Origin: a virus
IMG/VR virus record: IMGVR_UViG_3300042935_001795
Coordinates: 1-64,000 of that record
Reading direction: 5' to 3' (one strand)
Length of the DNA stretch: 64,000 bases
The position numbers and the translations under genes were made by a program. Each line of letters begins with the position of its first letter. The stretch's first letter is position 1. Below, piece after piece: positions 17,822 to 27,471 of the stretch. The notes beneath the pieces are model-generated. The model was not told the DNA's origin, ran no database searches, and saw only the letters and a program-made list of their open reading frames with translations.

Positions 17822-19219
17822 TTATTGGAGTAGTTTTTTCAACCGGTCTGCTTTTGTGAAATATTCATAAGAAGTTTTTTTATAATCTTTACGCTGTGCA
17901 TAAAGGTCACTTAATATTTTTCTTAGAATAGAATCCTCGGTCTTATAAACTACACCATTATCGCAAACAATAACCTCTTTATTCTTTCTGCGTTCTTCAA
18001 TTTCACTTTTATAAATCTTTTCAATATAAGCATCTGGAGATATATTGAACTGTCTCATGATCGAAGGGTATAGTGAAGCAAAATCGAATGCGCTTACACC
18101 TTCATAAAATCCTAAGATTGGTTCTTTTACGAATGCTCCAGCATATTGGCCATCTTTTTGACTGTCAGATTTCTCTTCACTTCCAATTCGCATTCCTTGC
18201 TCAGCAAGTTTTCTGGCCATAATTGCTTCAGTAACCGCCACTGGAGAACTTGCTTTATACAATGGCATATTAGTAATGTTTGCCAAGGTTAGTAGTACCT
18301 CCATCGACTTCAACTTCTGGTCAATGTAATATACAAGCACTGAATCGACAACATTGTAATATATGTACTTGACAAAGTTATCCCGGTATAAGTCCTGTAG
18401 TGAGCCAGTGAACTTGATTTTGTTAACGTTCAAGACTTGACTAGAAACATAATCCAAAGAGTTGGATTCCTTAACCTTTACAGTTCGGTCATATTTGTCA
18501 TACAATTGCATGTAGTCAAGAATTCCGATATGAAGAGGTCGACCGTCAGTATGATCGATTGAATTGGTCATACCAACTTCTTTAATATCAATTTGAAGTC
18601 TTTTACAACGATTAACAATATATTGCCAGTCATAGTTAATAAAATTCCACCCAGTCATCATTGGAAACTTTGGTAAGAATTTCATTAAGAATGTGTAAAC
18701 CATGTCATACTCAGACTTGAACTTATGGTACTTAAATTCCCAATCCTGATCAAAGTCTTTAAAATACTCATTGGTATCGTCTTGAATCTTTTGGATTTTA
18801 TCCGAAGCCATATCCTCTAAACCTAAAACAATTGCTTTACGATCTGGAGTAATTATTGAGAATGAAAGAATTCTACTTTTGGCCTCTTCGGCTTTTGGAA
18901 AGCCATCGACAATTTCAGTTTCAATATCGACAAAATACGTCTTTGGCATATTATATGCTGTTAGGTCTTTTTTGTCCTTCTCTGAAAGATTATCTAAAAA
19001 ATAAAGGATTGAAAACTTATTAAATTGTTTTCCATATCCTAATTTAACAGGTCGGCCATCCCAGTTTTTATACTCTGGGCTTGCTGCTCTGTCTTTTTCA
19101 TCACAAACATACCAATTTTGGAATTTGTCCACTGGATATTGTTTGAATGCTACTTCTCCCTTGTCATTGTAGTATGAAATGATAACATCTTTTTCACGCT
19201 GTTCGATGTCTAAAATCAT
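17822..19219 (-). CDS. Family B DNA polymerase, N-terminal half (3'-5' exonuclease plus motif A; gp43A-like)
   Basis: DIET, TGWN...YD, YNVVD exonuclease motifs; FDFASLYPSI motif A; ends in a fingers helix. Confidence 0.93.
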   Translation of the reverse strand: MILDIEQREKDVIISYYNDKGEVAFKQYPVDKFQNWYVCDEKDRAASPEYKNWDGRPVKLGYGKQFNKFSILYFLDNLSEKDKKDLTAYNMPKTYFVDIETEIVDGFPKAEEAKSRILSFSIITPDRKAIVLGLEDMASDKIQKIQDDTNEYFKDFDQDWEFKYHKFKSEYDMVYTFLMKFLPKFPMMTGWNFINYDWQYIVNRCKRLQIDIKEVGMTNSIDHTDGRPLHIGILDYMQLYDKYDRTVKVKESNSLDYVSSQVLNVNKIKFTGSLQDLYRDNFVKYIYYNVVDSVLVYYIDQKLKSMEVLLTLANITNMPLYKASSPVAVTEAIMARKLAEQGMRIGSEEKSDSQKDGQYAGAFVKEPILGFYEGVSAFDFASLYPSIMRQFNISPDAYIEKIYKSEIEERRKNKEVIVCDNGVVYKTEDSILRKILSDLYAQRKDYKKTSYEYFTKADRLKKLLQ

Positions 19220-19686
19220 TAATATCCTCTTTTTTGACGGTTAACATTTTCTTCTGCTTTCGCGAAGTAATAATTGTAAGCTGTTTTTGCATCTAATCCG
19301 ATTGAAGATGCATAATTTATAAAGAAATGTAGTATGTCTACCCATTCCATATAAAGTTCTTTTTTGTCCTCTTCTGATAGGTCGGAAACTTTCATAGTTT
19401 CATACTTTGCAAAGTCTTTTTTCCAGTATTTCCAAACTGCATTTCCACTACCATCTTTAATACCTCCAAGGGCATCGGTCATCTCGTGAATTTCATCAAC
19501 TACTGCGTGTGTATTAACATGCCAAAAGTTCATAATTTCTCTGATTGACATGTTTTCAAAATTAAAACCATAAGTTTGCTCTTGCATCCTCTTTTGGTTT
19601 TCCATAATATCCGCCAGGTGGGTGGTCGAATTTGAATAGAAGTCTTGGACTTCCAGGTCTTTACATTGATTGTCTATATTTGCCAT
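19219..19686 (-). CDS. Dimeric dUTPase/dCTPase (T4 gp56-like, MazG fold)
   Basis: VDEIHEM, WKYWK, EWVDILHF, KAEENVNRQKRGY. Confidence 0.85.
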   Translation of the reverse strand: MANIDNQCKDLEVQDFYSNSTTHLADIMENQKRMQEQTYGFNFENMSIREIMNFWHVNTHAVVDEIHEMTDALGGIKDGSGNAVWKYWKKDFAKYETMKVSDLSEEDKKELYMEWVDILHFFINYASSIGLDAKTAYNYYFAKAEENVNRQKRGY

Positions 19687-19728
19687 AAGTTTTTTATATA
19701 ATAGTTTTATAGGTAATTTTGAACTTGT

Positions 19729-20916
19729 TTAAAATAAACATGAACTTTTAAATGATACGTTTTCAACCTCGCATGATTCACCAATTTGCTCTTTTGAAAT
19801 TGGAGCATTTGCTCGGTTCAAGGCCATCTTTTTACTATCTCTAAGTCTTAGAAATACACCAAATTGACAACAACTAATTTCAGTACCAAACGTAGTAAAC
19901 CTTCCAGTCTCTGTGATTGTTTCTAAATAGTCAAGATTCTCTCCAGTAAAATCAAAGAATTCATGTTGAGTGTCCCGGATTTGTCTGATGACTTTAGCTC
20001 CAACATCAGATGAAATTGAAAAACCTAAATCTTCATAGAACCAGTTGATTGTGGTCATTGCTCCAACTCCAGGTGCAACAAAGTCATCGTCTTCGTTAAG
20101 ATTTCCAGATAGACTATTTGGTCGCAATAGATCAGGAGTCCCAATTTCAGGCATTCGGGCAAGGTTGGTACTAAAGTGATATCCATAATAGTTTCCAATT
20201 CCTCGATGTGATGTTAGAAAGTCGAAAGACTCTTCCATTGTTGGTTTCTTGGCGTAGAATTCTGCGAAACGTGGACCTAGTAAGGTAAACCAAAAAAACA
20301 TATCGCTTGTTCGACTCTGTCTGGTTGGATCTGGTTCGGCATTGATTAATATATCATAAGGAGTTTTAAGAACTCGGGCATGGTTTCTCGATTCGGTCTG
20401 CAAACTTGTTCGTAATTCTGTAGTACCATAAATCTTTTCTCCACGTCTCCTTGCATTCTCCATATTAACCATGCAATGCAGAACATACTTCTCATCATTA
20501 ACTAATCGGTCATATTTAACAAATGGAAATCCAGTGTCGTGTGTTAATAGACTAATTGTATTTGACGGTCCATAGAATTTTACAATTGCTGCATTAATTA
20601 GTCGGTCTTCAAAGGTACATTCTGGATTGTAGAAGACATTTTCGTTTAACCAAATAATCTCGTCGTGAAACGAACGATTTGGGTGGAAGTATGGAACTGA
20701 TCGTCCCTCTACAATAAATCCATGCCCAAATTTGTCCTCTCCAGTACCTTCGCGATGTCTAAATGTATCGAAGGTGCATGTTTTTGCAAAACGAACTTCA
20801 TATTCTCTTCGATTCATTTCATGAATAAAATCTCGAAGTAATTGCTTTTTTTCTGCTGGTATTAAATCCAACAGCGCCTGAGAATCCATCTCAAGCAGTT
20901 TTTTATTTGAAGTCAT
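19729..20916 (-). CDS. 5-hmdU DNA kinase-like protein (aGPT-pyrophosphorylase clade 1 family), divergent
   Basis: RGIGNYYGYHFSTNL, EDDDFVAPGVGA and EISCCQF match the family pattern GIG.F..Y....DL / DFV..GPGA / E..LCEF. Confidence 0.65.
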   Translation of the reverse strand: MTSNKKLLEMDSQALLDLIPAEKKQLLRDFIHEMNRREYEVRFAKTCTFDTFRHREGTGEDKFGHGFIVEGRSVPYFHPNRSFHDEIIWLNENVFYNPECTFEDRLINAAIVKFYGPSNTISLLTHDTGFPFVKYDRLVNDEKYVLHCMVNMENARRRGEKIYGTTELRTSLQTESRNHARVLKTPYDILINAEPDPTRQSRTSDMFFWFTLLGPRFAEFYAKKPTMEESFDFLTSHRGIGNYYGYHFSTNLARMPEIGTPDLLRPNSLSGNLNEDDDFVAPGVGAMTTINWFYEDLGFSISSDVGAKVIRQIRDTQHEFFDFTGENLDYLETITETGRFTTFGTEISCCQFGVFLRLRDSKKMALNRANAPISKEQIGESCEVENVSFKSSCLF

Positions 20917-20918
20917 TT

Positions 20919-21956
20919 TTATATTTTATTTTTTAAAGTATCATTAAATTCTTTAAATATTCTTTTTAATTCTTGTTTTTGTTTAAGTATTAAATCTTCT
21001 GAATATAAACTTACTAATTTTTTAACATCTTCTCGAGATTCAACATATAATATACTTCTAAGTTTAGTATCTTTTATTAACTCTTTATTTGGGTCATATT
21101 CTATTGGAATTGCAGCTAGACAGTTAGAAGCTAGTGTTTCATAAAATCTAAAAGTAGTTGTATTACCCTGATGTTCTTCATCTGCAATTATAATACTCAC
21201 TTTAGATTCATCAATAACATTTAGCATTTCGGTATGCTTTAAAGGTAGAATTTGAGTAGCATTAATTTTTTTAGATTTATATCCAATTAAAATATTATTG
21301 CCATCATGTGGCATATACTTTTGTAATATTTGTTCTCTATAAGATTTTCTATTTCTACCAAAATAAACAACATCCCATTTTTTATTATTTTCAATTTCAA
21401 ATAATGCAGCATTTGGACTATTTATTTTATTTTGAAATAGGTCTTTAAACATATACTTAAAAAAATCAAAGTATATTATTTTATTAGGGTCTCCTTCCCA
21501 TCCATTGAATTGTTTAATGTCTTTTCCGGGAAATAATTGTATTGAATCTTTTATAAGATTATCCCAAGTTTTAACATGTTCTTGACAAAGATTAAATCTT
21601 TCTAAAGCTTTAGCTGGATTAATAGGTGGTAAATGAGGATCTGCGACTATATTATAAATCTGAACCTTTGCATTAGAAATACCCTCTACACAAGAAATCA
21701 TGTGGGATTTAATTCCTCCTCCAAAAAAGTTAGCACCGGACAATTGAATAAAAATTCCATCATATTCTTTCCACTCTGCTAGAGAAGCATCAATATAGAA
21801 GTCTTGGTCTTTGTTTGATCTGTTTTTTTGGCCTATTACATGGACTTCATGTCCTGCTTCAATTAGCGCCTTTCTAACATAATAGACTTCTAGTCCATTT
21901 GCTCTTTCTCTATGATGAGATGTATTTATAAAAAACGAAAGTATCCCAAATTTCAT
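20919..21956 (-). CDS. T4 DNA beta-glucosyltransferase-like GT-B glycosyltransferase
   Basis: NFFGG, DVVYFGRNR, TFRFYETLAS...EYDP...LYVESREDV parallel T4 BGT motifs. Confidence 0.7.
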   Translation of the reverse strand: MKFGILSFFINTSHHRERANGLEVYYVRKALIEAGHEVHVIGQKNRSNKDQDFYIDASLAEWKEYDGIFIQLSGANFFGGGIKSHMISCVEGISNAKVQIYNIVADPHLPPINPAKALERFNLCQEHVKTWDNLIKDSIQLFPGKDIKQFNGWEGDPNKIIYFDFFKYMFKDLFQNKINSPNAALFEIENNKKWDVVYFGRNRKSYREQILQKYMPHDGNNILIGYKSKKINATQILPLKHTEMLNVIDESKVSIIIADEEHQGNTTTFRFYETLASNCLAAIPIEYDPNKELIKDTKLRSILYVESREDVKKLVSLYSEDLILKQKQELKRIFKEFNDTLKNKI

Positions 21957-21957
21957 C

Positions 21958-22356
21958 CTATTTTTGTACTAATTTAGACACAATGTTAACCAATTCAACT
22001 TCAGGACAGTTTTCCTGAATGATTTGATATTGTATAGGGTCATCTTCAAAAAACCTGGAAACAATAACACCTTCACCTTTTAAACGGTTGATTGTATGTG
22101 CTTTGTGATGTCCAGAATGTCTTCTTGCCGCAACGGTATGGTTTCCACGTTCCTCAAGAGTCATTGGATTAAAATACACCTTGCATTTAATTCCTCTCTC
22201 TTTAAGGATTGCGCGAACCTCATCCTGTTCATCAACGCATCTTCCAGTAATAACAAAATCTGTTGTTGCTCTTGGAGTTATTCCAATTGAAATTACTCCG
22301 TCAAAATCGTATCCGTAGATATCGCTTGGTTTTTTGGTTTTAAAAATATTTAACAT
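21958..22356 (-). CDS. Capless HAD-family phosphatase
   Basis: DFDGV (motif I), ITGR (II), K (III), FFEDD (IV). Confidence 0.8.
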   Translation of the reverse strand: MLNIFKTKKPSDIYGYDFDGVISIGITPRATTDFVITGRCVDEQDEVRAILKERGIKCKVYFNPMTLEERGNHTVAARRHSGHHKAHTINRLKGEGVIVSRFFEDDPIQYQIIQENCPEVELVNIVSKLVQK

Positions 22357-22371
22357 GCTTAAAGTTTTGAT

Positions 22372-22401
22372 AAAAAAAGGGAGAGTTATTTCTCTCCCTT
22401 T
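22372..22401 (-). terminator. Terminator-like hairpin after the inositol synthase gene
   Basis: AAAGGGAGAG-AAATAA-CTCTCCCTTT followed by a T run. Confidence 0.75.
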
Positions 22402-22422
22402 AGGTTAATGTAATTTTTAGAC

Positions 22423-23610
22423 TTATTTTGTTTTAGCAACTAACTGTTTTCTTGTAGAATCTGTTAGGCGTCTTGCTGCCAATTCAGTACATTCATAAAC
22501 AGCGTCAGCAAACATCATCTGGTCTGGTGGGGTTTTTTGTGTAAATGCTGAAGGACCTCTTAAGGCTCCTACAACTCCTAATTCTCTTGCAACTCTTAAG
22601 TAACGAACTGCGTCAATTACAACTCCTGCAGAGTTTGGAGAGTCTTGTACACTTAATTGAGCATCAAAAAGAACTGGTGCTCCACCGAATCCTGTAAGTT
22701 CTAAACGGAAGTTAGCAACTTTATTATCACCATAGAATGCGATATACTCAGAAGGACCTGCATGTAAGAATGAATCTTCAGTTGAGATTCCTCTAATTTC
22801 GTTTTGAGCACGAATAACATTTTCTTTAGAAATCTTTTTAGATGCTAGACGAGATTTGTCTTCCATGTTTAAGAAATCTGTGTTACCTCCAACATTTCTT
22901 TGGATGTGCGCTTTTACGTGATGTCCTCTTTCAAAGGCAAGTTCTTGTAACATTTGAGAAAGAATACTTGCTCCAAATTGAGAACGCATATCATCACCGA
23001 TGATTGGAATACCTGCATCGATAAATCTTTGCTCCCAAGCTGGGTCAGATGCGATAAAAACTGGAATACAGTTTACTAGTGAGATTCCTGTTTCAAGACA
23101 AATTTCAGCCCAGAATTCAGTTGTTTTTTGAGAACCTACTGGTAAGTAGTTAATTAGTACCTCAACTCCATGGTCTTTTAATTTGGCAATGATTGAATCC
23201 TTCCATTCACGTGCTTTTTTTGTTGTCCAATTTGTACGATTAATATCGGTAGTATTTCTTAAATACTCGTCAACTAAGAAACGATTTTGTTCTGGATAAT
23301 TATCCATAAGGGCTGCATAACCATCAATTACTGGAGCCTCATAAACTGGTGCTTTACTAGTAATAACATCAACGATGTCCCATGCAGAGTTTGGTCTTTG
23401 TTTAAGTGCATATCCTAGTGTTTGATTAACTTTACGTTCATCAATTTCGAATCCACAAACAAATTCAATATTTTCTGCTTTGTAACCTCCAATATCGGAC
23501 TTCATCATTCCGGTAATATCATTTGGATTCTCTGTGTAATATTGTACACCTTCAACTAATGATTTAGCGCAATTTCCAGTCCCAATAATTCCTACTTTAA
23601 TTTTGTTCAT
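22423..23610 (-). CDS. ino1: myo-inositol-1-phosphate synthase
   Basis: GTGNCAKSLVEG, INYLPVGS, GDDMRSQFGA, NVGGNTDFLNM, SKKISK, DSPNSAGV. Confidence 0.95.
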   Translation of the reverse strand: MNKIKVGIIGTGNCAKSLVEGVQYYTENPNDITGMMKSDIGGYKAENIEFVCGFEIDERKVNQTLGYALKQRPNSAWDIVDVITSKAPVYEAPVIDGYAALMDNYPEQNRFLVDEYLRNTTDINRTNWTTKKAREWKDSIIAKLKDHGVEVLINYLPVGSQKTTEFWAEICLETGISLVNCIPVFIASDPAWEQRFIDAGIPIIGDDMRSQFGASILSQMLQELAFERGHHVKAHIQRNVGGNTDFLNMEDKSRLASKKISKENVIRAQNEIRGISTEDSFLHAGPSEYIAFYGDNKVANFRLELTGFGGAPVLFDAQLSVQDSPNSAGVVIDAVRYLRVARELGVVGALRGPSAFTQKTPPDQMMFADAVYECTELAARRLTDSTRKQLVAKTK

Positions 23611-23665
23611 TGTTTTAAAATTTAATTTATAATTTTTATACTTGTTTTATTTAAAAAGTTTCAAA

Positions 23666-24250
23666 TTAAAACCACTCATGTACTACTACACCTAGGTTTG
23701 TAATGTCATTAACTATTTTTTGGCGTGATTCAAAAGATTCGGATGGCATAGCTCTTTCGTGGAACTCAATATAGATTTCCTTTATATTACTAATGGTACA
23801 ATCTTCTATCATCTTTCTTAAGACCGAGAATTCAGAACCTTCAATATCCATCTTGCATATTATGTTTGAATCTTTGGGTAGTTCAGAAACAAACTTGCTA
23901 AAATCAATACTTGGAACCTGTACATAGGTCTCATAACCTGGCCAATAAAATCCAATTCCATTAATTGAAGATGCCCATCCGTCTATATCGGACTGTCCAT
24001 CTGTTGGAGAACCTGTTTGGCTCTTTTTATGGTTTTCTTGATTAAATAGTACAAATCCATCCTCAATCCATACTGCCTGATTATGGCAAGTAATATTTAG
24101 GGGTATTTTCTTTACTCGTTCTTCTATGTTACATTCAGGATTTGCCTCAAAGGTATGAATCTCAAATGTATCATCAATAACTCCTTTAGCCTGAAAGTCG
24201 AGTAGGCCTTCACAAAGATGAGTGCCGCAATCTAAAAAAATGTTTTTCAT
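23666..24250 (-). CDS. FkbM-family SAM methyltransferase
   Basis: FLDCG.H..EG, FEANP, KMDIEGSEF, IEFH. Confidence 0.85.
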   Translation of the reverse strand: MKNIFLDCGTHLCEGLLDFQAKGVIDDTFEIHTFEANPECNIEERVKKIPLNITCHNQAVWIEDGFVLFNQENHKKSQTGSPTDGQSDIDGWASSINGIGFYWPGYETYVQVPSIDFSKFVSELPKDSNIICKMDIEGSEFSVLRKMIEDCTISNIKEIYIEFHERAMPSESFESRQKIVNDITNLGVVVHEWF

Positions 24251-24264
24251 ATATTATTTTGTTT

Positions 24265-25329
24265 TTAAAAAAGAGTATTAATAGTTTTCTTTAGTACAAC
24301 ATTTTTCTCGGACGTCTCGAAATCATATTGGTAAAACTCTCTAGATAGGTGAACAGAACCTGGCTTTTCCATGTAGGTATCGGCAAAATACTGTGGGTCT
24401 GCTGAGTACCAGTGAATTGGCCATTCGATTACGTTCATATTATATATAGCCGAGAGTTTGTCAACCTCTTCGTTAAATATTTCCATTAATTGAGTCCGTT
24501 CTCGTTGAGTTCCGATAAATGGAGTACCTTTATGGTACCCGGTTTTTGGAATTCTACGACCTTCAAATTCAATAGGCAATAATTTTACAATGGTATTCTT
24601 TTGAATTCCTAAAGATTTAAGGTGTTCAAAGTAATTCTTTACAAGTGATTTAACAGCTTCAACTGGTTTTTCTTGTCGACATAAGTGATGACGAACGTCG
24701 ATGTTTCCAAAGTAAGTAATCAAGTGATCAGTTCCTTCAGGAATATATGAGGCCATTCCTTCTTTTAAGACTCCAAATAGGGTTTTACCATCATTTCGAC
24801 TAATATTTGAACCAGGATGGTACACTGAAACGGAATGAGAATCTCCTAACACAAATGTTTTAGAATCCAGTTTTAATTCAATAGTTTGTGTTTCAAGACT
24901 TCTTTTTGTAAGTGCTTCAGTATTAAGAGATGCCCATAAAGGTGAACATGATTTCATCCGGCTTTCGGCAAATTGTCCAACATTTGGCATTTCTCGATTC
25001 AAACAATATATTGTTCCACTAAAATCTAAGAATCTTTTAATTCTCTCTGCTGGTTCGTCAGTGGCTCCACCAAATAGGTTATAAGAACCTTGAAATTCCA
25101 TTGGAAGTGCTACTAACCAAACATCATATTGATGAATATCTTCTGACTTGGTAAGTACTTCAACATCCAATCCGAGAGACCTCAATTGATTAGCTAGGAG
25201 AAAGGCCCATGCACTTTTATGGCTAGCCTTCTTTGAACTATACGTAGTTACTACATCATCAATTGCAATCTTCTTGCCCTTTAATGAATCTAAAACTGCA
25301 TAAATATTAACCATTGTTTTGCTTTTCAT
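24265..25329 (-). CDS. Two-domain protein: BGT-N-like domain plus SGNH-like domain (start may be 25314)
   Basis: N-half YDVWLV...NLFGG resembles 20919..21956; C-half has GDSHS, G, GNIDVRHH and SVHL. Confidence 0.55.
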   Translation of the reverse strand: MKSKTMVNIYAVLDSLKGKKIAIDDVVTTYSSKKASHKSAWAFLLANQLRSLGLDVEVLTKSEDIHQYDVWLVALPMEFQGSYNLFGGATDEPAERIKRFLDFSGTIYCLNREMPNVGQFAESRMKSCSPLWASLNTEALTKRSLETQTIELKLDSKTFVLGDSHSVSVYHPGSNISRNDGKTLFGVLKEGMASYIPEGTDHLITYFGNIDVRHHLCRQEKPVEAVKSLVKNYFEHLKSLGIQKNTIVKLLPIEFEGRRIPKTGYHKGTPFIGTQRERTQLMEIFNEEVDKLSAIYNMNVIEWPIHWYSADPQYFADTYMEKPGSVHLSREFYQYDFETSEKNVVLKKTINTLF

Positions 25330-25582
25330 TAATGTAATTGTCTAATCCTTGGATATATGCAACTGCATCTAATAAGTTATCACGTTTGTGATTGTAAGAT
25401 TCTCTTGAGAATTTAAGTGCAACAAGTGCTTTAAACATGTGTTCACCTGTAACTTCAAGTCCGGTCATACCTTTAAAAATCATTGCAGCCCTGTCCATAC
25501 CTTCTGAGAAAGGACCATAGTTTCTGTCTGCTTCTTCGGAGCGGTTATTAACTATTCCGCTTGCTTCGTCTAAAATATTCAT
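25307..25582 (-). CDS. DUF6378-like protein, often found in phage nucleotide-modification loci
   Basis: ILDEA..IV..R...YG....F, LKFSR, HKRDNLLDAVAY. Confidence 0.75.
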   Translation of the reverse strand: MNILDEASGIVNNRSEEADRNYGPFSEGMDRAAMIFKGMTGLEVTGEHMFKALVALKFSRESYNHKRDNLLDAVAYIQGLDNYINEKQNNG

Positions 25583-25645: not shown

Positions 25646-25656
25646 TGTAAATATAA
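25646..25656 (-). promoter_or_regulatory. TTATATTTACA box resembling a Bacteroidota -7 element; identical copies at 31118-31128 and 38885-38895
   Basis: Three identical 11-mers, each just downstream of a hairpin; similar to the TAnnTTTG consensus. Confidence 0.6.
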
Positions 25657-25672
25657 TACAAAAAATCGACAT

Positions 25673-25717
25673 AAAAAAATCCTGACTAAAAAAGTTATTA
25701 ACAATTTTGTCAGGATT
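25673..25717 (-). terminator. Terminator closing the ncRNA transcript
   Basis: AATCCTGAC...GTCAGGATT stem followed by a T run. Confidence 0.7.
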
Positions 25718-25726
25718 AAATTATTA

Positions 25727-25965
25727 CGGGATCGTTTTTCGTGATTTTCTTCCCGGCGGAATAACCCATTTTATAGTCTTCGGCTTTGATGTTCGCGAGC
25801 GTCTACTAAACTTCGACCCATCCTACTTATCACCTATTGGGGTGGTGCGACTGGTGATCTATTTTTTATACTGGTTAAACTTCCATTTGCCTGTTATACT
25901 TGATACTATCTCTGTAATACGTCTGGCTATCATAGTTGTGTGAGTACTTTTTGCTGTACCGATCC
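25727..25965 (-). ncRNA. Y-RNA-like unit 2 (~239 nt)
   Basis: 5' GGATCG-GTACAGCAA ... AAAAA-CGATCC-CG terminal stem; internal ATCACC/GGTGAT hairpin. Confidence 0.6.
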
Positions 25966-25967
25966 AC

Positions 25968-26023
25968 CTGGTTCCGATTTTGCGTAGTTTATAATTGCTT
26001 GTATCGTTTGCTGTAAGGAACCA
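25968..26023 (-). ncRNA. Y-RNA-like unit 1 (~56 nt)
   Basis: 5' TGGTTCC-TTACAGCAA ... AAAATC-GGAACCA-G terminal stem; starts ~9 nt after the GATATATA promoter. Confidence 0.62.
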
Positions 26024-26040
26024 ATTTATTGTATATATCT

Positions 26041-27471
26041 TTAAACAACTGGAGCGTATCTCTCACTCAAAATTGTTTTATCCATGATTTGTTGTGGAGA
26101 TTCTATATCTCCTCCAAGTAAACTTGTCATAATTGCTGGAGAGAATCCTGAAACAAGTGCGGTTCCTTTAGCATCAAATGCAACTGGTACTCCTCCGTTT
26201 CGGGATTGAATATTCCAGTAAACAATTTGAGGTACTTTGTAACCTGCATCGGCATACATTTTCTCAATTAACTGCTGAGCAGTAGGTGTCCATTTTCCAC
26301 CTTCGTTTCTCCAACCTCCACCTCCGGTTGCCGAGTTAAATTCCATATCCGATAGGATTAAGATTTTGTTTGGCATTTTGTCTTGAGACAATTTGTGCTT
26401 AGTGGCCTGATCTAGGATCAGTTTGAATGTAGCCTCAAGATCTGTTGACATTCCCCAATCAGAGTCTGACATCTGTGTGTAGCGATCATTCAGTGAGCCA
26501 CTTAATACTTGCAACTGTGGTTTACTTGAGAATGTTATAAATGCATCTTTGAAAGGACCCACATTTCTTTCAGAAATATAGAGACCTAATGAGATTGCAA
26601 CATTCATACAAGTTACAGTTTTACTTCCACCAGCTGGACTTGACATAGAACCTGAAACGTCTACTACTGGTAAAATCATATCGTTTGCACCTTCCAAATA
26701 GTTTGGCAAGGCTTTCCATTGTTCGTTTGCTACGGTTGCATTTCCACGCTCTAACGATGTAATAATATCGTAAGGATAAACTGCACCTGCATTAATCTTA
26801 GCCTCACCTTTTACAAGGGAAGCAATATACGCTGAATAACTTTCGTATGCATTTTTACCAAAGGCTTTTTGGTAACGTGCAGAAGCTACTGATGGTAATT
26901 TACCGAAGTCAATAGAATTCCAGTCTTTAGCACACATTTTAGTTTCAACAACACTTGTTAAACCTACAAGAGATTTTCTGTATTGTTTTGGGGACATTCC
27001 AGTAAATTTACGTAACTTTTCGGCTACTGCTCCTTTACGTGGCATCCATTTAGCACATAAACCATTTTCGTTGATTAATGCATCTGAAATTAGGGTGAAT
27101 GCCTCCTTTTCAAGATATGTTCCTGCTAAGGCTAGTAAGTCGTCCCAGCGTCCGTACTCTGAAATTAAGTGTAAGTTTGGTCTAAGTACCAAATCGTGGT
27201 TTTCTGCCAAGTAGACTAAAATGTCTTTGAAAACTTGACGTTCTCCAGCTCCACCTCGAACATCTCTAGCCCAAAAAAGAAGTTTCATAGCACGCTTTGG
27301 GTCTTCATTAAATGCTTTAGAGAAAGTAGTAATCAAACGTTGTTTGTCCTGTCCTCTCATAGCTCCAATGTTAAAGAAAAGGTCAACACATGCATTCAAT
27401 GATGTCGAATTTGTCGCCATTCCATTTTCAGTTACCATGTCCTCTTGTCTTAATGCGTCTATAAATTCCAT
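26041..27471 (-). CDS. Ro60/TROVE-like helical protein with a vWA domain (DUF2828 family)
   Basis: TENG, RDVRGGAGER, YGRWDD, AKWMPR, MIDAS VVDVSGSM, ILSDMEF, YWN, SGFS. Confidence 0.85.
   Translation of the reverse strand: MEFIDALRQEDMVTENGMATNSTSLNACVDLFFNIGAMRGQDKQRLITTFSKAFNEDPKRAMKLLFWARDVRGGAGERQVFKDILVYLAENHDLVLRPNLHLISEYGRWDDLLALAGTYLEKEAFTLISDALINENGLCAKWMPRKGAVAEKLRKFTGMSPKQYRKSLVGLTSVVETKMCAKDWNSIDFGKLPSVASARYQKAFGKNAYESYSAYIASLVKGEAKINAGAVYPYDIITSLERGNATVANEQWKALPNYLEGANDMILPVVDVSGSMSSPAGGSKTVTCMNVAISLGLYISERNVGPFKDAFITFSSKPQLQVLSGSLNDRYTQMSDSDWGMSTDLEATFKLILDQATKHKLSQDKMPNKILILSDMEFNSATGGGGWRNEGGKWTPTAQQLIEKMYADAGYKVPQIVYWNIQSRNGGVPVAFDAKGTALVSGFSPAIMTSLLGGDIESPQQIMDKTILSERYAPVV

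What the first reader, a model, noticed from the sequence alone, without database searches (positions are those of the whole stretch)
19219..25582. Candidate new DNA hypermodification pathway using inositol
Seen: a co-oriented cluster directly upstream of the polymerase N-half contains DUF6378, a BGT-N/SGNH fusion, an FkbM methyltransferase, myo-inositol-1-phosphate synthase, a HAD phosphatase, a T4 BGT-like glycosyltransferase, a 5-hmdU DNA kinase-like protein and a gp56-like dCTP/dUTPase. Known: T4 gp56 and BGT support glucosyl-hmC; the 5-hmdU DNA kinases of phages ViI and M6 activate hmU for substitution; MIPS plus a phosphatase yields myo-inositol. Inference: inositol or inositol phosphate, possibly further glycosylated, methylated or acylated, is attached to a hydroxymethyl-pyrimidine as an anti-restriction or anti-CRISPR coat. 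I know of no described inositol-bearing base. No CDP-alcohol phosphotransferase is present in the cluster, which argues against simple inositol-lipid synthesis.
Basis: partly seen in the sequence, partly recalled or inferred. Interest (0 to 1): 0.85.

Follow-up and report, generated by a model that had tools for sequence, protein, structure and literature searches.

The report
Phage inositol-linked hydroxymethylcytosine modification cluster
An uncultured lake phage keeps genes for making the ring alcohol inositol locked between enzymes built to work on hydroxymethylcytosine in DNA, which points to an inositol-bearing DNA base that has not been shown chemically.

Summary
All eight minus-strand genes exist at the stated coordinates. 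Three labels need correction.

- **The "5-hmdU DNA kinase-like" gene (p2)** has no kinase domain. It is a stand-alone PF18723 helical protein whose best solved fold match is the PaMx11 DNA transferase gp46. It carries an invariant Glu-x-x-x-Cys pair.
- **The target base** is most likely cytosine. Near-complete relatives carry a T4 gp42-type hydroxymethylase, and it lies inside the locus in 30 of 98 distinct related loci.
- **The BGT-like glycosyltransferase and FkbM methyltransferase** are accessory, present in 4 and 62 of the 98 loci.

The conserved core is the inositol-phosphate synthase (MIPS), a small HAD phosphatase, a BGT-N/SGNH protein and p2. All four occur in 89 of 98 loci.

The MIPS+HAD pair also sits beside DNA-modification genes in all three cultured phage groups that carry it. 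No lipid or sugar-nucleotide genes were found.

Best reading, at 0.55: a cyclitol is attached to hydroxymethylcytosine in DNA. This is unproven chemically. I found no such base in the searchable literature. This scan has noted the same linkage before on other DNA.

The parts
19219..19686 (-). p1, gp56-like MazG-type dCTP/dUTP pyrophosphatase (155 aa)
   Evidence: phrog_173 at 1.7e-13. tblastn matches 1441 phage records, mostly annotated as dCTP pyrophosphatase; listed rows are 26-45% identical and mostly cover residues 50-155. No Pfam model above cut-off.
19729..20916 (-). p2, PF18723 (HMUDK_hel / aGPT-Pplase clade 1) helical protein without a kinase domain; invariant Glu346 and Cys350
   Evidence: PF18723 at 31.3 bits, cut-off 25. 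AF2 model pLDDT 90. VIA-wide top hit is PaMx11 gp46/PUGT 8z2m_A (Z 10.0, rmsd 4.2, 228 aligned), followed by two queuine-salvage DUF2419 enzymes and 19 helix-hairpin-helix DNA glycosylases at Z 5.0-7.5. BFVD hits are PF18723 and Pplase1 proteins. E346 and C350 are invariant in 9 of 9 aligned family members, including PaMx11 gp50 and RP13 ORF120.
20919..21956 (-). p3, T4 beta-glucosyltransferase-like GT-B enzyme (accessory)
   Evidence: PF09198 at 26.7 bits against cut-off 27. phrog_7922 matches full length at 5.3e-14. 24.5% identical to T4 b-gt, E 3e-7. Present in 4 of 98 distinct loci.
21958..22356 (-). p4, minimal HAD-type phosphatase, always paired with MIPS
   Evidence: Alignment A3 of 13 homologues keeps DxDGV, TGR, HK and DD invariant. 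Adjacent to or near MIPS in Moby, Cr30 and RP13. Present in 94 of 98 loci. No Pfam, NCBIfam or PDB sequence hit.
22376..22401 (-). Terminator-like hairpin between MIPS and p4
   Evidence: 10-pair stem with 5 GC pairs, then a T run, on the minus strand. This is a consensus match only.
22423..23610 (-). p5, myo-inositol-3-phosphate synthase (MIPS)
   Evidence: PF01658 at 80.6 bits. TIGR03450 at 285 bits over the full length, below its equivalog cut-off of 638. 1gr0 Ino1 scores 264 bits against 141 bits for the five-membered cyclitol-phosphate synthase 6k96.
23666..24250 (-). p6, FkbM-family methyltransferase (accessory, position varies)
   Evidence: PF05050 at 43.8 bits and TIGR01444 at 52.2 bits. 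One or another FkbM form is present in 62 of 98 loci. One RNA-library contig joins 23662 to 24267, which is a strain without this gene.
24265..25329 (-). p7, two-domain protein: BGT-N-like domain (about 1-150) plus SGNH hydrolase/acyltransferase domain (about 155-345)
   Evidence: AF2 model pLDDT 90.8. SGNH fold: Foldseek prob 1.0 and VIA Z up to 11.6. S164, N209, D211 and H327 are invariant in 45 sequences. hhalign against T4 BGT residues 25-99: prob 59%, E 9.1e-5. hhalign against p3: E 0.0019. Fused to p2 in Aeromonas phage 44RR2.8t ORF233c.
25307..25582 (-). p8, DUF6378 protein, function unknown
   Evidence: PF19905 at 35.5 bits. Present in 74 of 98 loci. It overlaps the hydroxymethylase stop codon in L117.

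Best explanation
The cluster is a post-replicative hypermodification pathway for 5-hydroxymethylcytosine (hmC) in phage DNA that uses a cyclitol, most likely myo-inositol.

Inferred steps:
1. The gp56-like dCTPase (p1) and a T4 gp42-type dCMP hydroxymethylase put hmC into the DNA. The hydroxymethylase is seen in relatives and lies outside this 30%-complete record.
2. MIPS (p5) converts glucose-6-phosphate to inositol-3-phosphate. The small HAD phosphatase (p4) removes the phosphate. The FkbM enzyme (p6) may O-methylate the ring.
3. p2 is a base-flipping, DNA-glycosylase-like enzyme with the same Glu-x-x-x-Cys spacing as the transferase PUGT. It works with p7, which joins a DNA/hmC-binding BGT-N-like domain to an SGNH acyl-transfer domain. 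Together they replace or decorate the hydroxyl of hmC with the cyclitol, giving an ether-linked 5-(inosityloxymethyl)cytosine.
4. The BGT-like enzyme (p3), where present, glycosylates what is left.

Shown here: the gene identities, folds, conserved residues and linkage. Inferred: every chemical step on DNA.
For: **Linkage**
- Of 142 IMG/VR loci, reduced to 98 distinct ones, 93 hold both MIPS and a p2-family gene, and 89 hold MIPS, HAD, p7 and p2 family together. Across these loci MIPS identity runs from 43% to 98% and p2 identity from 24% to 98%.
- In distant relatives one compact block reads hydroxymethylase, DUF6378, dUTPase, p7, MIPS, FkbM, HAD, p2, C5 DNA methylase. An example is L117, from a complete 293-kb record.

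**Independent contexts for MIPS**
- All 19 phage-collection records with a MIPS belong to three groups.
- In Cr30, MIPS sits beside PF18724 ADDT (1.3e-52) and a weakly matching glycosyltransferase (PF20691 TAGT, E 8.5e-4, under cut-off; phrog_842 4.7e-8).
- In RP13, MIPS lies 3 kb from a PF18723 protein (3e-47).
- In Menderavirus, MIPS sits inside FolE-QueC-DpdA-QueE.

**Base identity**
- 5 of 5 larger relatives hold a divergent TS-family gene of 68-75 bits; four of them also carry a ThyA-type gene of 283-284 bits.
- Its best PDB match is T4 dCMP hydroxymethylase, 8.3e-15.
- 21 of 29 listed TS-like ORFs have Asp at the specificity position, as T4 gp42 does. The other 8 are ThyA-type or dUMP-type.

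**Enzymes**
- p2 fold and Glu/Cys pair. PUGT Glu243 and Cys247: PMC11472151 sections 14 and 22.
- p7.
- Aeromonas phages 44RR2.8t and 31 have genes 42 and 56 but no glucosyltransferase (PMC2993671 passages). They carry a p7-p2 fusion next to a vSGLT-like sugar/solute symporter in place of MIPS.

**No competing pathway**
- No PF01066 and no PF00483 in 5 of 5 records, including two complete ones; the controls rang.
Against: - No enzyme here is shown to bind inositol or to act on DNA.
- No kinase or other obvious activating enzyme is encoded. No PF18724 transferase was found in G001, G006, 44RR, RP13 or Moby (positive control).
- The role of PF18723 proteins is unproven even in thymidine systems. 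In M6, gp55 was dispensable in vitro.
- The Aeromonas phages keep p7-p2 without MIPS, so p7 and p2 can work without phage-made inositol.
- A terminator-like hairpin separates MIPS from p4.
- The similarity of p2 to PUGT is structural only. hhalign finds no sequence signal, and Z 10 is within the range that helical folds can reach by chance (note).
- The loci were baited with MIPS or p2 and come from related phages, so the counts are not independent events.
- This record itself lacks the hydroxymethylase. CheckV estimates it at 30% complete.
Confidence: 0.55

Rival explanations
1. p1, p2, p7 and p3 modify hmC DNA, for example by glycosylation or acylation, but MIPS and HAD are an unrelated auxiliary metabolic pair. 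They would make inositol for host physiology (osmolyte, signalling, envelope) and merely share a hypervariable region next to the polymerase.
For: - A terminator-like hairpin lies right after MIPS.
- Aeromonas phages have the p7-p2 fusion without MIPS.
- The cluster sits between regA-side genes and the polymerase, a region where Moby and Cr30 also carry variable cargo.
Against: - MIPS and the p2 family are together in 93 of 98 distinct loci, down to 43% MIPS identity.
- MIPS+HAD sits beside three other kinds of DNA-modification genes in cultured phages.
- No inositol-lipid or CDP/NDP-inositol genes in 5 of 5 records.
- In L117-type loci MIPS lies in the middle of the block, between p7 and p2.
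Confidence: 0.2
2. The SGNH domain of p7, targeted by its BGT-N-like domain and helped by p2, acylates hmC or a sugar on it. The final mark would be an ester. Inositol or inositol phosphate would serve only as an acyl carrier, cofactor or regulator.
For: - The SGNH fold carries an invariant Ser, Asn and His.
- Its structural neighbours include carbohydrate O-acetyl esterases and the peptidoglycan O-acetyltransferases OatA and PatB.
- No kinase is encoded.
Against: - It does not explain why a synthase plus phosphatase for a free polyol is conserved with p7 and p2.
- It does not explain why MIPS+HAD joins ADDT and deazaguanine clusters that lack p7.
- No acyl-donor gene was found in the cluster.
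Confidence: 0.1
3. The cluster acts on something other than DNA, such as free nucleotides, tRNA or a cell-envelope glycoconjugate or inositol lipid.
For: - The second-best fold matches of p2 are queuine-salvage DUF2419 enzymes, which act on a nucleotide (Z 9.3 and 8.8).
- Inositol is best known in lipids and in mycothiol (my own knowledge).
Against: - No CDP-alcohol phosphotransferase or nucleotidyltransferase was found.
- The neighbours are a dCTPase, a hydroxymethylase, a dUTPase, a C5 DNA methylase and the DNA polymerase.
- p7 and p3 share the domain of a DNA glucosyltransferase.
Confidence: 0.05

Closest known systems
Thymidine hypermodification in phages M6, ViI, PaMx11 and PhiW-14 (dUMP hydroxymethylase, 5-hmdU DNA kinase, amino-acid:DNA transferase aGPT-Pplase2/ADDT, and a PF18723 paralogue). 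Read here: PMC8989533 passages; PMC11472151 outline and sections 11, 14, 22.
   Same: - A hydroxymethyl-pyrimidine is made at the nucleotide level and then decorated on DNA.
- p2 belongs to PF18723, the family of PaMx11 gp50.
- p2 shares the fold and the Glu-x-x-x-Cys spacing of the transferase gp46/PUGT.
- ViI already shows an oxygen nucleophile, serine.
   Different: - The base is cytosine-type, not uracil-type.
- No P-loop DNA kinase and no PF18724 transferase were found. The kinase search had no positive control.
- The putative donor is a phage-made cyclitol, not an amino acid or polyamine.
- A BGT-N/SGNH protein is an obligatory partner, which is not described in those systems.
T4 glucosyl-hmC system (gp56, gp42, alpha- and beta-glucosyltransferases). 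Read here: PMC2993671 passages.
   Same: - gp56-like dCTPase.
- gp42-type hydroxymethylase in relatives.
- A BGT-like GT-B enzyme in this window.
- A BGT-N-like domain in p7.
   Different: - The BGT-like gene is present in only 4 of 98 loci.
- In p7 the UDP-glucose-binding half is replaced by an SGNH domain.
- No UDP-sugar genes are linked. A cyclitol pathway is linked instead.
Arabinosyl-5-hydroxycytosine pathway of RB69 and DLP3. Read here: PMC13326640 abstract, section 28 and passages.
   Same: - A phage-encoded mini-pathway (isomerase, small HAD-like phosphatase, kinase) feeds a decoration of a modified cytosine on DNA.
- A TS homologue makes the precursor base.
   Different: - The TS homologues near these clusters keep Asp at the position where that paper finds Asn in 5-hydroxy-dCMP synthases, so hmC is expected rather than 5-hydroxycytosine.
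- There is no nucleotidyltransferase to make an NDP-activated donor.
- The transferases are not GT-B enzymes.
Bacterial myo-inositol-3-phosphate synthase (M. tuberculosis Ino1, PDB 1gr0)
   Same: p5 aligns over its full length at 264 bits, with long conserved blocks.
   Different: - It is phage-encoded.
- It scores below the NCBIfam equivalog cut-off (285 against 638 bits).
- The five-membered cyclitol-phosphate synthase 6k96 is the next-best match at 141 bits, so the exact cyclitol is not proven.

Membership tests
Myo-inositol-3-phosphate synthase (PF01658 / TIGR03450) | Family model matched above its curated cut-off | tested here: met
   PF01658 scores 80.6 bits against a cut-off of 27. TIGR03450 covers 4-370 of the protein at 285 bits but is below its equivalog cut-off of 638.
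Myo-inositol-3-phosphate synthase (PF01658 / TIGR03450) | Closer to true MIPS than to related cyclitol-phosphate synthases | tested here: met
   1gr0 Ino1 scores 264 bits; 6k96, the five-membered-cyclitol-phosphate synthase, scores 141 bits. The product was not tested.
5-hmdU DNA kinase (5-HMUDK) | P-loop kinase domain | tested here: not met
   p2 hits only PF18723 at E up to 10. The whole chain to residue 369 models as a helical, glycosylase-like fold. The one Walker-like regex hit in a homologue falls in a beta-hairpin region, and the consensus there has GR rather than GK.
PF18723 HMUDK_hel (aGPT-Pplase clade 1) | Pfam model above cut-off, and the fold shared with named members | tested here: met
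   31.3 bits against a cut-off of 25. BFVD Foldseek hits at prob 1.00 to PF18723 proteins of phiRSL1, Lucky3 and SP10 and to Pplase1 proteins; PhiW-14 at prob 0.99. PaMx11 gp50 is PF18723 at 5.6e-41.
PF18723 HMUDK_hel (aGPT-Pplase clade 1) | Conserved Glu and Cys near the C-terminus | tested here: met
   E346 and C350 are invariant in 9 of 9 sequences of 14-60% identity and in 43 of 43 close homologues.
Amino-acid:DNA transferase (PF18724 ADDT / aGPT-Pplase2) | Sequence membership | tested here: not met
   No PF18724 hit at E up to 10. hhalign of A1 against PaMx11 gp46 gives prob 0.2%.
Amino-acid:DNA transferase (PF18724 ADDT / aGPT-Pplase2) | Fold and catalytic Glu/Cys geometry | tested here: inconclusive
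   8z2m_A is the top VIA hit (Z 10.0, rmsd 4.2, 228 aligned). The Glu-to-Cys spacing of four residues is the same as PUGT Glu243/Cys247. No residue-level superposition was available.
T4 beta-glucosyltransferase (PF09198), for p3 | Family model and full-length homology to T4 b-gt | tested here: inconclusive
   PF09198 scores 26.7 bits against a cut-off of 27. phrog_7922 covers 1-335 of 358 positions at 5.3e-14. tblastn to T4 b-gt gives 24.5% identity over 88% of the length, E 3e-7. Catalytic residues were not checked.
SGNH/GDSL hydrolase, for the p7 C-domain | SGNH fold with conserved Ser, Gly/Asn and His blocks | tested here: met
   Foldseek prob 1.0 to TesA and others. VIA Z 11.6. G162, D163, S164, H165, N209, D211 and H327 are invariant in 45 sequences. 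The Pfam GDSL model is under its cut-off (19.2 against 23.6 bits). Block names are recalled, not from a call.
BGT N-terminal (acceptor) domain, for the p7 N-domain | Homology to T4 BGT residues 1-170 | tested here: inconclusive
   hhalign of A2 against T4 BGT gives prob 59%, E 9.1e-5, over 64 columns that include NLFGG/NFFGG. hhalign against p3 gives E 0.0019. No Pfam hit. The domain was not folded alone.
HAD phosphatase, for p4 | Four HAD motifs (DxD, T/S, K, DD) | tested here: met
   D17, D19, G20, V21, T37, G38, R39, H84, K85, D105 and D106 are invariant in 13 of 13 sequences. The motif definitions are recalled. No library model or PDB sequence matches.
T4 gp42-type dCMP hydroxymethylase (in relatives, not in this record) | TS fold with Asp at the Asn177 position and Asp169 kept | tested here: met
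   The best PDB hit is 1b49, T4 dCMP hydroxymethylase. 21 listed ORFs read RSND...D. The residue roles come from PMC13326640 section 28. The regex required the first Asp, so an Asn variant would not have been listed.

The most novel reading that the evidence does not exclude
A widespread group of lake and marine giant phages replaces cytosine with an ether-linked, sometimes O-methylated, inosityl-oxymethylcytosine made without any kinase. In this reading the BGT-N/SGNH enzyme esterifies the hmC hydroxyl to create a leaving group. The PF18723 cysteine enzyme then attacks C6 and swaps the ester for free inositol. That would be the first carbocyclic polyol on a DNA base, the first function for aGPT-Pplase clade 1 proteins, and a new route of activation.
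Probability: 0.2. Interest if true: 0.9.

Novelty: new variant of a known kind. Interest (0 to 1): 0.8.

Why it matters
- **A new class of DNA substituent.** Phage DNA hypermodifications defeat restriction enzymes and CRISPR nucleases and have supplied tools for epigenetic sequencing. A cyclitol on cytosine would be a new chemical class, neither sugar, amino acid nor polyamine.
- **A family without a function.** It would give a role to PF18723 proteins, which none of the paper sections I read assigns.
- **An unusual domain swap.** A glucosyltransferase acceptor domain would be seen re-wired to an SGNH catalytic domain.
- **A hidden isomer.** Inositol and hexoses have the same formula, so an inosityl-hmC nucleoside would have the same mass as glucosyl-hmC. 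Mass-only surveys could already have misread it.
- **Abundance and tractability.** The cluster is common in lake metagenomes. It has cultured proxies in Aeromonas 44RR2.8t and 31, Cr30, RP13 and Menderavirus, so it can be tested directly.

Tried and rejected
- **p2 against solved structures.** Foldseek against PDB gave no match at E <= 0.001. A profile of A1 against PDB sequences gave 0 hits at E <= 10. hhalign of A1 against PaMx11 gp46 gave no signal. The link to gp46 therefore rests on VIA-align and on the motif spacing.
- **Complex prediction.** Complex prediction of p7 with p2 returned no verdict, with scores of 0.00 and 0.00. I do not use it either way.
- **Atlas and PDB searches.** The Atlas search of p7 residues 1-152 gave no usable hit. 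For p8 the Atlas returned only DUF6378 clusters, PDB sequences gave 0 hits, and BLASTP against the Cr30 dGTP_diPhyd_N protein gave no alignment. The function of p8 stays unknown.
- **DNA kinase search.** PF18748 rang in 0 of 5 records, but nothing rang in any control either, so this does not show absence.
- **Walker-A regex hits.** The hit in the L117 p2 homologue was spurious, and its C-terminal tail looks like a winged helix by eye only. The 189-aa neighbour looks like thymidine kinase by eye only. The L144 376-aa protein has a P-loop but was not examined further.
- **Candidate kinases in the cultured phages.** A Cr30 P-loop protein is only weakly like PaMx11 gp49 (E 0.013). The RP13 phrog_139 protein is not like it.
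- **RNA evidence.** All four laid runs are contigs. In the three RNA libraries, depth over MIPS is 16-97, against 0-27 over neighbouring cluster genes. In the DNA run, depth is 2-22 across the stretch and 12.6-16.4 over MIPS. The tool states that such depths cannot rank genes and that DNA may be present in RNA libraries, so I treat this as a weak hint only. Bins without cover mean nothing.
- **Taxonomy and host.** The nearest polymerase is in an uncultured huge phage, at 44% identity. No host could be assigned.
- **Literature.** Searches found no paper describing an inositol-bearing DNA base or an SGNH enzyme in DNA hypermodification. The library lacks most subscription journals.

Full report
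**What is there**

The window is part of an 89,642-base viral record that CheckV rates 30% complete. Its GC content is about 0.30-0.39. They lie directly upstream of the N-terminal piece of a family-B DNA polymerase at 17822-19219.

| Gene | Coordinates | Assignment | Evidence |
|---|---|---|---|
| p1 | 19219-19686 | gp56-like NTP pyrophosphatase | phrog_173, 1.7e-13; 1441 phage records, mostly annotated dCTP pyrophosphatase, listed rows 26-45% identical |
| p2 | 19729-20916 | PF18723 helical protein | 31.3 bits, cut-off 25 |
| p3 | 20919-21956 | T4 BGT-like glycosyltransferase | PF09198 26.7 bits against 27; phrog_7922 full length; 24.5% identity to T4 b-gt, E 3e-7 |
| p4 | 21958-22356 | small HAD phosphatase | invariant motifs in 13 homologues |
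| p5 | 22423-23610 | MIPS | PF01658 80.6 bits; TIGR03450 285 bits; 1gr0 264 bits |
| p6 | 23666-24250 | FkbM methyltransferase | |
| p7 | 24265-25329 | two-domain protein | see below |
| p8 | 25307-25582 | DUF6378 | |

**The "kinase-like" gene is not a kinase**

- p2 matches only PF18723, even at E <= 10.
- An AlphaFold model built from 43 homologues (pLDDT 90) is helical throughout.
- Foldseek against PDB found nothing.
- The exhaustive VIA-align search put PaMx11 gp46/PUGT first. That enzyme is the 5-phosphomethyl-dU glycinyltransferase (8z2m_A: Z 10.0, rmsd 4.2, 228 residues aligned). Two queuine-salvage DUF2419 enzymes followed (Z 9.3 and 8.8), then 19 helix-hairpin-helix DNA glycosylases at Z 5.0-7.5.
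- The tool warns that Z under about 13 can be common for helical proteins. Even so, all 22 top rows belong to one superfamily.
- The BFVD search independently found named PF18723 and Pplase-clade-1 proteins at probability 1.00.
- PaMx11 gp50, a stand-alone protein next to the kinase gp49, is itself PF18723 (5.6e-41), while gp46 is PF18724. PF18723 is therefore the helical paralogue of the transferase, not a kinase.
- In nine family members of 14-60% identity, Glu346 and Cys350 are invariant. The four-residue spacing equals that of PUGT Glu243 and Cys247, the metal-binding Glu and the Cys that attacks C6 (PMC11472151 sections 14 and 22).
- hhalign finds no sequence link to gp46, so the residue equivalence is inferred.

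**p7**

- The model (pLDDT 90.8) has an SGNH domain at about 155-345. Foldseek gives probability 1.0 to TesA and others, and VIA gives Z up to 11.6.
- G162, D163, S164, H165, N209, D211 and H327 are invariant in 45 sequences.
- The N-terminal domain aligns with T4 BGT residues 25-99 (hhalign prob 59%, E 9.1e-5) and with p3 (E 0.0019). Both alignments run through the NLFGG/NFFGG motif.
I could not fold the domain alone.
- In Aeromonas phage 44RR2.8t, p7 and p2 are fused into one 795-aa protein, ORF233c.

**Which base**

- This record has no TS-family gene.
- 5 of 5 larger relatives (145-236 kb) carry a divergent 284-290-aa TS homologue of 68-75 bits; four of them also carry a ThyA-type gene of 283-284 bits.
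- The best PDB match of the divergent gene is T4 dCMP hydroxymethylase (8.3e-15), followed by CMP hydroxymethylase MilA.
- Of 29 distinct TS-like ORFs listed from the loci, 21 have Asp where ThyA has the specificity Asn. These include all those beside the clusters and the 44RR gene-42 homologue. The other 8 are ThyA-type, or the PaMx11 and RP13 uracil-type enzymes.
- They keep the Asp that PMC13326640 (section 28) finds replaced by Asn in 5-hydroxy-dCMP synthases. My regex required that Asp, so an Asn variant would have been missed.
- The expected precursor is therefore hmC.

**Linkage**

- I fetched loci with MIPS (80 loci), with p2 (34 loci) and with the p2 alignment (79 loci).
- This gave 142 loci, which reduce to 98 distinct ones.

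| Feature | Distinct loci (of 98) |
|---|---|
| MIPS and p2 family together | 93 |
| MIPS, HAD, p7 and p2 family together | 89 |
| DUF6378 | 74 |
| An FkbM form | 62 |
| gp56-like | 47 |
| Hydroxymethylase inside the locus | 30 |
| BGT-like | 4 |

- Of the five exceptions, four are cut at a contig or locus end (L060, L062, L143, L153). The fifth is the 44RR record.
- These loci were baited with the genes counted and come from related phages, so the numbers show conservation rather than independent events.
- The conservation nevertheless holds down to 43% MIPS and 24% p2 identity.
- In distant relatives the block is compact. In L117, from a complete 293-kb record with terminal repeats, it reads hydroxymethylase, DUF6378, dUTPase, p7, MIPS, FkbM, HAD, p2 with an extra C-terminal tail, C5 DNA methylase, NAD epimerase.

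**Independent contexts for MIPS**

All 19 records of the phage collection with a MIPS homologue fall into three groups.

- **Menderavirus (16 records).** In phage Moby, the one record whose region I read, MIPS and the p4 homologue lie between FolE and QueC/DpdA/QueE.
- **Cr30.** A PF18724 amino-acid:DNA transferase (1.3e-52) and a weakly matching glycosyltransferase (PF20691 TAGT, E 8.5e-4, under its cut-off; phrog_842 4.7e-8) lie directly upstream of MIPS.
- **RP13.** A PF18723 protein (3e-47) lies 3 kb upstream. The only TS homologue in the genome is uracil-type.

The Aeromonas phages have genes 42 and 56 but no glucosyltransferase (PMC2993671 passages). Their p7-p2 fusion lies next to a sodium:solute symporter that is closest to Vibrio vSGLT (349 bits). 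No MIPS is present. That fits a free sugar or polyol as the substrate, but it also shows that p7 and p2 do not need phage-made inositol.

**What is absent**

- No CDP-alcohol phosphotransferase and no PF00483 nucleotidyltransferase in this record or in four relatives, two of them complete. The controls rang in 13 and 14 of 14 genomes.
- No PF18724 in five records, with a positive control.
- The kinase model PF18748 rang nowhere, including in the controls, so that search is uninformative.

**Mechanism**

The most economical reading has three parts.

1. hmC DNA is made as in T4.
2. MIPS and HAD make free inositol, which FkbM may O-methylate.
3. p2 flips hmC and its Cys attacks C6, which lets the exocyclic carbon be captured by a ring hydroxyl.

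p7 would either prepare a leaving group by esterification or deliver and position the partner. No step on DNA has been shown. Direct substitution at hmC by a C6-attacking cysteine enzyme without phosphorylation is known to me from work on C5 methyltransferases. That is recalled, not read here.

**Other evidence**

- The 6.4-kb stretch is held at half of its sampled words or more in 14 runs labelled lake, freshwater or crustacean metagenome. Three of these may be the source of this DNA. Parts of it are held in freshwater RNA libraries.
- Contigs from three RNA libraries cover most of the cluster, but contigs cannot prove transcription.
- One RNA-library contig joins 23662 to 24267, which is a strain lacking p6.

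**Literature and earlier notes**

- Five searches found no described inositol-bearing DNA base.
- The scan's earlier notes report the same linkage on other genomes, reach the same reading and are likewise unproven.
- One of those notes gave me the lead that PF18723 equals aGPT-Pplase clade 1. I confirmed this for PaMx11 gp50 and through the BFVD names.

**Verdict**

- The cluster is a new variant of phage hydroxymethyl-pyrimidine hypermodification, with a probable cyclitol donor and a new enzyme pair.

Noticed in passing
window 25648-26200: The non-coding stretch downstream of the DUF2828/DUF7788 (TROVE-like) gene has contig depth of 7-582 in three RNA libraries, against 11-17 in a DNA run. 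Contig depths cannot rank genes, so it is a hint only.
   Followed up: partly
window 23662-24267: One RNA-library contig (X15) joins these two points and skips 604 bases, which is the whole FkbM gene p6. A co-occurring strain therefore lacks it, matching its patchy presence in relatives.
   Followed up: partly
L001 (Stenotrophomonas phage Moby) 7207-12621: MIPS and the small HAD gene are inserted between FolE and QueC/DpdA/QueE of a 7-deazaguanine DNA-modification cluster. This may be a second kind of inositol-linked DNA base.
   Followed up: partly
L109 (Aeromonas phage 44RR2.8t) 4295-8275: A phage-encoded sodium:solute symporter, closest to Vibrio vSGLT at 349 bits, lies directly upstream of the 795-aa p7-p2 fusion ORF233c.
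   Followed up: partly
L076 13284-13781; L024 10989-12723: Variant clusters carry a different FkbM, a 349-aa PF18723 protein only 26% identical to p2, and in some a cREC_REC 'cyclic-phosphate processing receiver' domain protein (PF20274, 5.5e-21).
   Followed up: no
L117 11443-13592; L126 13136-14350: C5 cytosine DNA methylases and an NAD-dependent sugar epimerase/dehydratase directly follow the p2 homologue in distant relatives.
   Followed up: no
L107 155-1459 and 2642-3328: In a relative, the gp42-type hydroxymethylase is flanked by a Clp/Hsp100-like ATPase fragment and a ClpP-like protease. This is read by eye from the translations and was not tested with a family search.
   Followed up: no
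window 22376-22401 (-): A strong terminator-like hairpin lies between MIPS and the HAD gene, although the two are always paired.
   Followed up: no
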